A stretch of 62,979 nucleotides of DNA, counting the filler, from Kipferlia bialata (Eukaryota): the NCBI GenBank assembly GCA_003568945.1. It is 6 parts of 6 records of this genome, joined end to end, with 100 filler letters (N's around TTAATTAATTAA, not from the genome) between each part and the next. Parts side by side here need not be neighbours in the genome. Positions count along the whole stretch, not along the records: positions 25,086 to 39,163 come from BDIP01000864.1; 5 more parts are not named here. The stretch is one strand, 5' to 3'. Position numbers and translations under genes: made by a program. Of the stretch, positions 28,401 to 31,400 are shown piece after piece. Each line of letters starts with the position of its first letter. Position 1 is the stretch's first letter. The notes under the pieces were generated by a model. That model searched no databases. It was not told where the DNA came from and saw only the letters and a list, made by a program, of their open reading frames with translations.

Positions 28401-31400
28401 TCGATGTCAGTGGGAATGGCATCTGGAGGGCAGGCACAAGGACAGGGCTAGAGGGGGTGTGCACAACCTACAATGTAAGAATGTGTGACAGACTCTGTAT
28501 CGTCAGAATCACTAGCATGAAAGCCTGAATATCTGTATGTGGTAAACCTTGACCACTGACCTACGTGGATGTATAACAGTATACTATTTGTCAGTGGCAT
28601 TCACTACATCTCTACTCTGTACCTGATTATTGAAGTATCTCACTCTGTATATATATATATGTATACCTTGAGCACTGGCCTAGGCTGCACATCCATGGTC
28701 ACACCCTCCAGGGGGACAACACCTGGGGTAAGACACATTCATATTATATATATGTATATATACATATACAGTGTATGTACTATACTGATGTACATCCATG
28801 GTCACACCCTCCAGGGGGACAACGCCTCGAATGAGAGACGTATATGAGACTGACTATCTACTATTTGAATTTAGAATACTGTTTGCAGAACCTTGCTCTC
28901 TCAGTAACCCATCCACTACGAGTGTGATGGCTGTCCTAGTGAGTCCACCAGCGTCTAGGCCCCTCTCACCCTGAAACACAACCTAGGTATCAGAACGATA
29001 TAGAAAGCGTTTGCATATAGCTCGCCCATAAACACAACCTAGGGGTCACAATACTGTATGAGTATATATGTATAGTGTATATAGTATATACGTAAGTGTG
29101 AATATGCATCAAGGCCCTTCCCGCCCTGGAACATACGCGGGAGACGTTACATATATGTGTATGAATACAAGTTAGCTATGGTTGAAATGAACAGAGAGGC
29201 TTAGATAATACAATCGAATAATGGTTCCATACCTTCAGTCTGTGCTTGGCTGGTGACAGGTGGACACAGGCCTCTAGTCCTGGGTATGAGTACAGATAAG
29301 AATAGAAATGCAAAGAGGTATAGAGATAGTATGGATTCGCCCGCATACGAACATAGTTCTGTGTAAATATACATATATGTATTATTAGAATATGTATACA
29401 GAGGTACCTGACTGCAGAGGCATCAACCTTGACACAGACACCCTCCCCACTCCCTTTGGTGCATGTGCTACATCATGCACTGCATATGTATAGATTATAT
29501 GAATAGTACATACATACATACATACCTGATTGCAGAGGCATCAGCCTTGACACCGACACTCTTCCTACCCCCTTGGGTGCATGTGCCACTGCATGCACTG
29601 CATATAGTAGTAGCATACACATATATATGAATATGAGATATCTATATACACTCACCTGACTGTAATGGCATCAGCCTACTGACTGACACTCTTCCTACAC
29701 CCTTTGGGGCATGTGCCACTGCATGCACTGCTGCTGCTAGTGGCACATGACTGTGTGGGGTGGGTGGCCTAGGGGCAGGGGTCGGGGCACCAGAGAGAAG
29801 GCCAAGGATCCTAACGTCAGAGGATATAGATCAAAAACTACGCGATGAGAAATGTACCTATCTGTCTGTGCGAATGACAGCTCTCTGTCCCCCAGTGTAG
29901 AGACTACGGCTAGTAGAGGTGCGGGTATAGACAGTTCGTCAGGGAGAGAGAAGGAGGATGGACCATTGATGAAGGACCTGACAACGGCGTGGACAGTGTC
30001 AGCGGAGACGCCATCCTGTGGTGAGAGATACGAACACACAATCTATATACATATATATGTACCTGTGAATAGAGGCCTAGCTCTAAGAGTAGGACGCTAT
30101 AGGCTAGTGCCAGTCTGTATGGCATGTCTGCCCTGATGTGCATGGCCATGCCGTAGATGTCGGTCACGCCACACAATGGTGGGGGTAGCAACAGCCTAGA
30201 ATCAGTACTGTAAGTATTTATGATATTTGTATATTGGACAAGATTTATGTATTAGTATCATGATGTGCATGGCCATGCCATAGATATCGGAGACACCGCA
30301 TAGAGGTGGTGGAAGGAGAAGCCTAGTATGAGTACTATACATACTCGACATATATAGTATATATACTATATATATCTGATGTGCATGGCCATGCCATAGA
30401 TGTCAGTCACACCGCATAGAGGTGGAGGTAGCAACAGTCTATAGTTAGAAAATGACGTATATAGTGTATATACTATATATATGTATAAGTATGATGATGT
30501 GCATGGTCATGCCATAGATGTCAGACACACCGCATAAAGGGGGTGGTAGTAGCAACCTACAGTTAGGGAATATGTATATACAACGTATAAATAACAATAC
30601 ATATGTATAAGTATGATGATGTGCATGGTCATGCTATTGATGTCAGACACGCCAGAGAGAAGATACAGAGGGATTGGAAGGATACCTGCTATTTGTACAA
30701 TACTAGTGTATATATACACCATCCTTGTATGTGTATGAGTCAGTTTTGAGTATCTTATGTACATAGGCATTCAAACCTTGTGGGTGTGATGGAGAGTGGT
30801 CGCATCGACCCCAGACATGCATCAGCTAGGGTAGGGGGGTCGCCAGTGAAGCCTGATATAAGAGTGTGGATACGTTGAATAGGCGTTGCATATATGACAA
30901 GGGGACTAGCAAATCCTTTCGACACCCTAAGGGAAGCCATAAAGGATAGTACTGTGTTTGAGTATGATATATATCATACATGACAATGGTACCTAAGTGA
31001 TGACACCCCTGCACCTTGATCTGCTTGTATGAAGTCACAGGAGAGTGCATAGTATATATATAGTGCAGTGCTCTGAGATTCATGAGTCTGCATGTAACTA
31101 TCCATTCATAGTGTAACACACTATGGTACACCACATATTGTACTATAGGTGAAGAGTGATTACTATTAAGCCATCTCTACCTGAGTCTGCCTGTATGTGG
31201 TCACAGGACAGCACTATGTGCATTAATATAGCATAGTGTATATAATATATATATATGGCATATACATAGTATAGTCCATATACCTGCGTCTGCCTGTATG
31301 TAGTCACATGACATCATGTGCAGGAGACCATCAAGGCCTAGGTGGTGAGAAGGAGAAGATAGATATGTTGGGCATTGAATGGAGAGAGAGTATCCCAATA

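What the first reader, a model, noticed from the sequence alone, without database searches (positions are those of the whole stretch)
30134..30685. Five acceptor-side copies of LLLPPPLCGVTDIYGMAMHI with different codons and no donor
Seen: three echoes are exactly 62 nt like the matching live segment, each follows an AG, and all stop at the same point (CACATCA) with no GT after it. Echo 30261-30322 differs from the live exon by 13 synonymous nucleotides and one T>S change. Echo 30377-30438 is identical in protein. The echoes also differ from each other synonymously, and the most distant copy is degenerate. Inference: canonical splicing cannot make them exons, and silent divergence after a shared truncation implies each has served as the real exon start.
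Basis: partly seen in the sequence, partly recalled or inferred. Interest (0 to 1): 0.82.

Follow-up and report, generated by a model that had tools for sequence, protein, structure and literature searches.

The report
Introns stuffed with retired exon ends
In the protist Kipferlia bialata, most long introns of one gene examined, and introns of eight more genes, carry cut-off copies of the neighbouring exon's end that differ from it mostly by silent changes, likely because recombination between very different chromosome versions keeps swapping which copy is the working one.

Summary
Intron 21 (30196-30776, minus strand) of a 38-exon HECT-like gene, named by its source as Kipferlia bialata KIPB_004161, holds three intact 62-nt copies of the next exon's start plus one decayed copy. 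Each sits behind an AG; the spacers are homologous. Against the live exon pS is 0.71 and pN 0.03. A copy dead since birth is rejected (simulation P<=0.0005 per copy).

In this gene 23 of 37 introns hold 43 such echoes, always on the tandem-duplication side (0 of 74 wrong-side), and intron length is about 113+122 nt per echo. Across 77 echoes in 9 genes pN/pS is 0.21; dead-on-arrival gives 0.5 or more.

So the copies diverged while coding. Best explanation (0.5): ~110-nt duplications across one splice site, refreshed by out-of-register recombination between highly diverged chromosomes. A toy model reproduces this only at synonymous diversity 0.2-0.4, at or above the highest reported. No RNA or second-isolate evidence was obtained. 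Ten literature searches found no description.

The parts
25461..38945 (-). Host gene: 38-exon model of P0001 (1250 aa, partial), C-terminal part HECT-like
   Evidence: joined exons translate exactly to P0001; all GT-AG; Atlas 0.96 to PF00632 clusters; only weak PDB hits, E 0.43-2.9, all HECT; 0 Pfam families at E<=0.1
30777..30852 (-). Upstream exon 21, ends AAG|GT (phase 2)
30196..30776 (-). Intron 21 (581 nt) holding four echoes
30063..30195 (-). Live exon 22 (133 nt); 30134-30195 is the part that is copied
30261..30322 (-). Echo 1: 11 synonymous codons, T>S; AG and CTNAY branch motif kept
30377..30438 (-). Echo 2: 8 synonymous codons, no amino-acid change; first three Leu codons equal to live, middle shared with the other echoes
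30495..30556 (-). Echo 3: 9 synonymous codons, T>S, A>T; shares a 34-nt exact junction stretch with echo 4
30617..30685 (-). Echo 4: decayed, 69 nt, frameshifted, begins AG|GT
30196..30260 (-). Spacer 1 (65 nt), ends in branch motif and live acceptor
30323..30376 (-). Spacer 2 (54 nt)
30439..30494 (-). Spacer 3 (56 nt)
30557..30616 (-). Spacer 4 (60 nt); homologous to spacers 3 and 1
   Evidence: scores 60 and 27 against null about 0-2, sd 10-11
29408..29602 (-). Mirror case: two donor-side echoes (about 77 nt each) of the end of exon 24, each followed by GT, including a Ser AGT/TCA codon-family switch
9900..10610 (-). Ankyrin-motif exon (motif recalled) with one acceptor-side and four donor-side echoes that share variants against the live copy

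Best explanation
The echoes are cut-off copies of exon ends with their splice signals, likely left in the intron by a ~110-nt tandem duplication across one splice site and then likely refreshed from working exon ends by out-of-register recombination between highly diverged chromosomes. Step 1 (shown by anatomy): a unit of intron end plus exon start (or exon end plus intron start) lies in tandem beside the exon, and all junctions in one array share one origin. Step 2 (inferred from the deposited gene model): the spliceosome uses only the copy that belongs to a complete exon, so the rest are spliced out with the intron; this implies exon-definition-like site choice. Step 3 (shown statistically): echo and live copy diverged almost wholly under protein-level selection, and each echo has been silent only briefly (about 0.05 substitutions per site or less). 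Step 4 (inferred): introns of different chromosomes are too unlike to pair, so exchange happens in exon sequence. A live exon start pairing with an echo adds a unit whose splice-side part was coding until then and whose edge-side part and junction come from the old echo; the reciprocal event makes an echo live, and selection removes bad ones. Outer copies pair least and decay. The echoes have no function of their own in this reading; they are a record of old alleles.
For: Side and spacing: 43 echoes in 23 of 37 introns, 0 of 74 wrong-side; unit median 111 nt, IQR 100-130; intron length = 113 + 122 x echoes, r 0.88, 35 introns. Selection: 77 echoes, pS 0.315, pN 0.068, ratio 0.21; other genes alone 0.22; one echo per family 0.25. 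The dead-on-arrival share of silent changes is rejected for kappa 1-8: all echoes p<=4e-5, one per family p 2e-5 to 0.028. The 7 echoes that lost their splice dinucleotide give 0.49, the dead value. Silent changes show no drift to A/T in echoes (62:61). AG/GT kept in 36 of 43; branch motif in 15 of 22 acceptor echoes vs 13 of 435 background AGs and 32 of 37 real acceptors. Shared junction: spacers homologous. Mosaicism: echo 2 equals live in codons 1-3 but sides with the echoes at codons 6-9 and 14; echo 3 shares 34 nt with decayed echo 4. Toy population model: exchange between homologs at 3-10 times the unit's mutation rate with theta 0.2-0.4 gave echo-live pS 0.28-0.44 and ratio 0.08-0.49 (8 runs; 0.08-0.10 at 10x), with pN higher at the edge as observed; sister-only exchange gave pS about 0.01. 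Fornicates lack NHEJ and Rad51A and rely on HR with two Dmc1 paralogs (PMC8516963 section 8). In Schizophyllum commune, crossovers between diverged genomes fall preferentially in exons (PMC4209137 abstract).
Against: It needs very high diversity. The finding family fits about 0.4-0.6 substitutions per site on each branch, whereas the highest reported synonymous diversity is 0.20 within and 0.48 between populations (PMC4576712 passages). No second allele was seen: 1 hit among longer proteins, none among 7989 shorter candidates, none in metagenomes. The toy model did not reproduce the near-identical edge seen here (13 of 13 splice-side codons vary, 1 of 6 degenerate edge-side codons; similar in other long echoes), and arrays were lost in 9 of 14 small-population runs. 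Sex or homolog exchange in Kipferlia was not tested. Skipping of the echoes rests on an AUGUSTUS-type model that contains at least one probable error (exon 16 is itself an echo).
Confidence: 0.5

Rival explanations
1. The echoes are in use: each is an alternative exon start, joined to the rest of the exon by a non-spliceosomal, homology-guided jump (RNA template switch or frequent programmed DNA pop-out) that relies on the identical ~20-nt edge.
For: Protein-level constraint with saturated silent sites on the splice side and near identity at the edge (13 of 13 vs 1 of 6 variable codons, Fisher p 0.0005; long echoes). Splice signals kept while flanks look unrelated in 22 of 33 echoes. It needs no record-breaking diversity.
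Against: No such mechanism is known in nuclei (recalled). Across all echoes of 28 nt or more the edge holds more amino-acid changes, not fewer (non/N 0.06-0.11 vs 0.03, partly alignment overrun). Splice-signal retention is about what short neutral decay predicts. Four stop codons occur among 836 echo codons. Almost all changes are silent, so no protein diversity would be gained.
Confidence: 0.14
2. Patch repair: a break inside an exon is mended by pasting a whole exon with intron flanks from a diverged copy, leaving the two old halves as scars on either side. Arrays then grow by unequal exchange.
For: In 6 of 12 exons with echoes on both sides the halves meet within 8 nt (null 3.05, p 0.043-0.051). 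In two exons the upstream and downstream echoes share variants against the live copy.
Against: The 12 exons and their lengths were curated by eye and the threshold was chosen after viewing. Most echo-bearing exons, including the finding's, are one-sided. It has the same need for diverged donors, so it is a variant of the best explanation rather than an independent one.
Confidence: 0.18
3. Stepwise or recursive splicing uses the echo acceptors and internal donor-like sites, so that echo pieces enter the mRNA as micro-exons.
For: G|GT sites inside echoes 1-3 and AG|GT at the start of echoes 4 and 3 would cut intron 21 into five pieces of 90-129 nt (coordinates). Three 26-nt pieces would sum to 78 nt, keeping the frame. 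At 41980-42199 the echoes are 30 nt and followed by GT.
Against: It cannot explain constraint in the live exon's frame in all copies and beyond the internal GT. Many acceptor echoes start with other bases, and 0 of 21 donor echoes have a branch motif plus AG at the edge.
Confidence: 0.07
4. Ordinary tandem duplications, dead from birth, decaying neutrally.
For: Anatomy and polarity fit. Outer copies are decayed. The 7 echoes without a splice dinucleotide fit it.
Against: It predicts pN/pS of 0.5 or more; observed 0.21 overall and 0.04 here. Simulation gives P<=0.0005 for one such echo at any age.
Confidence: 0.03
5. Assembly artefact: versions from separate haplotypes strung together.
For: The published K. 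bialata assembly is short-read (PMC5874029 section 7). No contig or read spanning the array was obtained.
Against: Mid-exon-to-intron junctions would not exist in any haplotype, yet junction-spanning words are 6.3% of the region and run X1 holds 0.98 of sampled words (X1 may be the source of this DNA). Spacers are related but distinct. Only one shared exact stretch exceeds 31 nt. No second-haplotype protein was found.
Confidence: 0.05

Closest known systems
Intron gain by tandem genomic duplication (AGGT model; PMC3443670, passages read)
   Same: Local tandem duplication of exon sequence absorbed into an intron without changing the protein.
   Different: There an exonic segment with AGGT makes a new intron. 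Here the unit spans an existing splice site, lengthens an existing intron, recurs up to 4 times, and keeps a coding-selection signature.
Mutually exclusive tandem exons (Dscam type; recalled)
   Same: Tandem copies with own acceptor, diverged under protein selection.
   Different: Echoes lack one splice site and part of the exon, and vary silently rather than in protein.
Duplicated exons of Drosophila Y-linked genes (PMC8794474, passages read)
   Same: Partial gene duplicates around the working copy, mostly little expressed; linked by the authors to MMEJ and high gene conversion.
   Different: Whole exons in a non-recombining heterochromatic chromosome. Here: part-exons of about 33 nt in ~110-nt units across many genes.
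Exon-confined crossing-over in hypervariable Schizophyllum commune (PMC4209137 abstract; PMC4576712 passages)
   Same: Recombination between very diverged genomes falls in conserved exons, the step the best explanation needs.
   Different: No partial-exon arrays in the parts read, and the divergence needed here is higher.
Silent cassettes of antigenic variation, such as pilS or vls (recalled)
   Same: Truncated silent copies next to an expressed copy, kept in frame and exchanged by recombination.
   Different: Those vary in amino acids and serve one surface locus. These vary silently, lie in introns and occur in unrelated genes.

Membership tests
Mutually exclusive / tandem alternative exons | Each copy has both acceptor and donor and can replace the live exon in frame | tested here: not met
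   Donor-like site near the edge in 2 of 22 acceptor echoes; branch motif plus AG in 0 of 21 donor echoes; read-through stops in 14-40 codons
Mutually exclusive / tandem alternative exons | Copies under purifying selection on protein | tested here: met
   pN/pS 0.04 in this family, 0.21 overall
Mutually exclusive / tandem alternative exons | Copies present in mRNA | tested here: inconclusive
   No contig of run X2 was laid
Intron gain by tandem genomic duplication | New intron bounded by in-register GT and AG inside the duplicated exon sequence | tested here: not met
   The copied 62 nt hold no AG after the first base; the only in-register AG is at the live edge, where no echo has a GT
Tandem duplication across a splice site | Same orientation, correct side, homologous unit including the intron part | tested here: met
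   0 of 74 wrong-side; spacers homologous in 4 of 6 pairs at p<0.02
Neutral pseudoexon fragment | pN/pS of at least 0.5 against the live copy | tested here: not met
   met only by the 7 echoes that lost the splice dinucleotide
Recursive splicing | AG|GT ratchet point at each echo start | tested here: not met
   Echoes 4 and 3 start GT, echo 2 starts AC, echo 1 GC; not general in other families
Allele capture by unequal homolog exchange | Echo versions occur as live exon ends in other isolates; copy number varies; high synonymous diversity | not testable with these tools
   No other isolate found
Allele capture by unequal homolog exchange | Mosaic copies | tested here: inconclusive
   Pattern suggestive, but only 4 two-versus-two sites and near saturation; no tree was built

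The most novel reading that the evidence does not exclude
Kipferlia runs a genome-wide bank of interchangeable exon ends: silent half-exons with live splice signals are switched into use through a ~20-nt identical edge, by a homology-guided jump at the RNA or DNA level, often enough for selection to keep every copy coding.
Probability: 0.14. Interest if true: 0.95.

Novelty: new variant of a known kind. Interest (0 to 1): 0.78.

Why it matters
If the best reading holds, one genome carries a readable record of former alleles at a great many splice sites. That would imply synonymous diversity at or beyond the eukaryotic record and frequent homolog exchange in a free-living metamonad that lacks NHEJ and Rad51. 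It gives a concrete, countable mechanism of intron lengthening (about 122 nt per echo). It also gives a natural test of splice-site choice: a short-intron protist with a reduced spliceosome (87 of 174 proteins, PMC6679479 passage) would have to skip up to four good acceptors. Echoes also mislead gene prediction (exon 16 of the deposited model). If instead the echoes reach mRNA, an unknown joining mechanism is at work. All of this can be tested with raw reads and a few isolates.

Tried and rejected
No whole genome is held for this window, so counts cover the window only. Run search: no RNA holder listed; X2 (RNA by guess) held 0.15 of words against 0.19 expected for exon-internal words, but none of its contigs was laid, so this is no evidence. 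The one lay obtained (29526-30340) returned only two unrelated X1 contig pieces and nothing from X2; a filter can leave contigs out, so neither RNA joins nor the DNA array were tested directly, and echoes 2-4 were outside that stretch. Metagenome scans: P0001, 61 pattern matches, none confirmed; an Sm-like protein gave one unrelated locus L001, 58% identity, no echoes. Pfam: 0 families. Earlier findings of the scan: nothing. Rejected: dead-on-arrival, canonical alternative exons, general recursive splicing, and sister-chromatid-only turnover (homogenises). Rows left out: 1 main-gene hit of doubtful register and 4 rows under 16 nt (2 of them mis-anchored by me); never entered were gapped echo 4, a 1-nt-deletion echo near 8890 and two 10-nt echoes. 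Frames in the 8 other genes were read by eye. No tree was built (62 nt, near saturation). Supplements of the papers were not opened.

Full report
Observation. The five copies are there as described. On the minus strand the live segment 30134-30195 opens exon 22; echoes lie at 30261-30322, 30377-30438, 30495-30556 and, decayed, 30617-30685. The four intact copies differ pairwise at 9-14 of 62 nt and never at a second codon position. Echo 2 starts with A instead of G, which keeps Arg with the upstream exon's AG. Donor-like G|GT sites exist inside three echoes but not at the cut.

Context. The live exon matches P0001 at 100%, named by its source 'hypothetical protein KIPB_004161, partial [Kipferlia bialata]'. 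P0001 maps as 38 exons from 38945 to 25461, all GT-AG, and skips the four echoes in a 581-nt intron. Its C-terminal part resembles HECT ligases (Atlas 0.96; weak PDB hits; no Pfam hit). The K. bialata genome paper reports 124,912 introns and AUGUSTUS models with transcript hints; 'duplicat' and 'heterozyg' occur 0 times in its main text (PMC5874029, passages and section 7).

The pattern is general. A scan that did not require splice signals found 43 echoes in 23 of 37 introns of this gene, at a threshold passed by 1 of 770 controls. None lies in the 10 introns of 127 nt or less, 23 of 27 longer introns have them, and 0 of 74 wrong-side tests hit. Exon starts are copied upstream and exon ends downstream. 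AG or GT is kept in 36 of 43, and the branch motif in 15 of 22 acceptor echoes against 13 of 435 other AGs. Intron length is 113 + 122 nt per echo (r 0.88). With 35 echoes from 8 other genes (frames read by eye) there are 77 echoes in 55 families, with median unit 111 nt and median echo 33 nt.

The copies diverged while coding. If an echo is dead from birth, at most about 40-48% of differences are silent and pN/pS is at least 0.5. Observed: 190 of 319 silent (ratio 0.21); this family 31 of 35 (0.04); one echo per family 116 of 210 (0.25). The last is the fairest count and gives p from 2e-5 (kappa 1) to 0.028 (kappa 8). Alignment overrun at the edges inflates pN, so these figures are conservative. 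Simulation on the real unit gave P<=0.0005 for 8 or more silent codons with at most 1 changed codon at any age; a history of two live lineages of 0.4-0.6 substitutions per site followed by silence of 0.02 or less fits best. The 7 echoes without their splice dinucleotide give 0.49. Silent changes are balanced between GC and AT (62:61).

One junction, many sources. Spacers 1-4 are homologous (4 of 6 pairs at p<0.02); the outer intron end is not significantly so. Echo 3 shares 34 exact bases across the junction with decayed echo 4 but has an intact 5' part. Echo 2 equals live in its first three Leu codons yet sides with the echoes further on. All 13 splice-side codons vary, against 1 of 6 degenerate edge-side codons; other long echoes look alike. 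Flanks of echo and live copy look unrelated in 22 of 33 cases. In 6 of 12 two-sided exons the two echoes meet like halves of an older exon (p about 0.05, curated by eye).

Mechanism. The simplest reading is a duplication across one splice site, tolerated because only the complete exon is spliced in (inferred from the model, not from RNA), followed by out-of-register exchange between diverged chromosomes that moves live exon ends into silent slots and back. In a toy population model, homolog exchange at 10 times the unit's mutation rate with theta 0.2-0.4 gave pS 0.29-0.40 and ratio 0.08-0.10; at 3 times, ratio 0.25-0.49; sister-only exchange gave pS about 0.01; theta 0.02-0.1 gave pS of 0.25 or less. 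Arrays were often lost in the smaller runs, and the identical edge was not reproduced. Fornicates lack NHEJ and Rad51A and have two Dmc1 paralogs (PMC8516963 section 8); that Dmc1 tolerates mismatches is recalled, not checked. Crossovers in hypervariable S. commune favour exons (PMC4209137 abstract). The weak point is the diversity needed, at or above the record of 0.20 within and 0.48 between populations (PMC4576712 passages), with no second allele found.

Rivals. Present-day use through a homology-guided jump explains the edge identity without record diversity, but has no known machinery and meets stops in some echoes. Patch repair from a diverged copy is a close variant of the best reading. 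Stepwise splicing does not explain the frame of constraint. An assembly artefact is unlikely: junction words make up 6.3% of the region while run X1 holds 0.98 of sampled words, though X1 may be the source of this DNA. The read lay gave no usable cover, so neither RNA use nor the array was tested directly.

Literature. Ten searches, on Kipferlia with intron, exon or duplication, partial exon duplication, one-sided invasion, hyperdiversity and pseudoexon conversion, found no description of this pattern. The library lacks most subscription papers and supplements were not opened. Read beyond listings: PMC5874029 (passages, section 7), PMC6679479 (passages), PMC8516963 (passages, section 8), PMC3443670 (passages), PMC4576712 (passages), PMC4209137 (abstract), PMC8794474 (passages).

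Verdict. A real, apparently undescribed and pervasive gene architecture built from known parts. That the echoes diverged as coding sequence is well supported; how they did so is open. Interest 0.78.

Noticed in passing
window 33031-32977 (-): Exon 16 of the deposited model is an acceptor-side echo of exon 17's start read in another frame, with the only donor of 37 lacking G at -1; probably an annotation error.
   Followed up: partly
window 33282-33454 (-): Two related ~70-nt segments in intron 15 with no matching exon in the model; possibly a missed exon and its echo.
   Followed up: no
window 41980-42199 (-): Two 30-nt acceptor echoes are each followed by GT, and their spacers start like the upstream intron; they could be in-frame micro-exons from whole-intron duplication.
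   Followed up: no
window 35860-35903 and 35545-35593; 62353-62399 and 62657-62706; 57231-57253 and 57470-57631; 10572-10610 and 9900-10294: Upstream and downstream echoes meet like halves of an older exon; in the last two cases they share variants against the live copy.
   Followed up: yes
whole window, 13 regions: Echo density tracks (TA)n density (Spearman 0.84, p 0.0004), confounded by intron content.
   Followed up: partly
window 54823 (+): Apparent GC donor, copied with its echo at 54934.
   Followed up: no
window 26088-28979 (-): HECT-like C-terminal region missed by Pfam.
   Followed up: partly
window 24145-24396 (+): ORF resembling an Sm/LSm snRNP protein (label recalled); its one metagenome relative was 58% identical.
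   Followed up: partly
window 10862-10872, 25030-25041, 39208-39219, 53380-53392, 60629-60639 (approximate): N gaps with a TTAA-type linker: the window joins several contigs, so neighbours across gaps may not be true neighbours.
   Followed up: no
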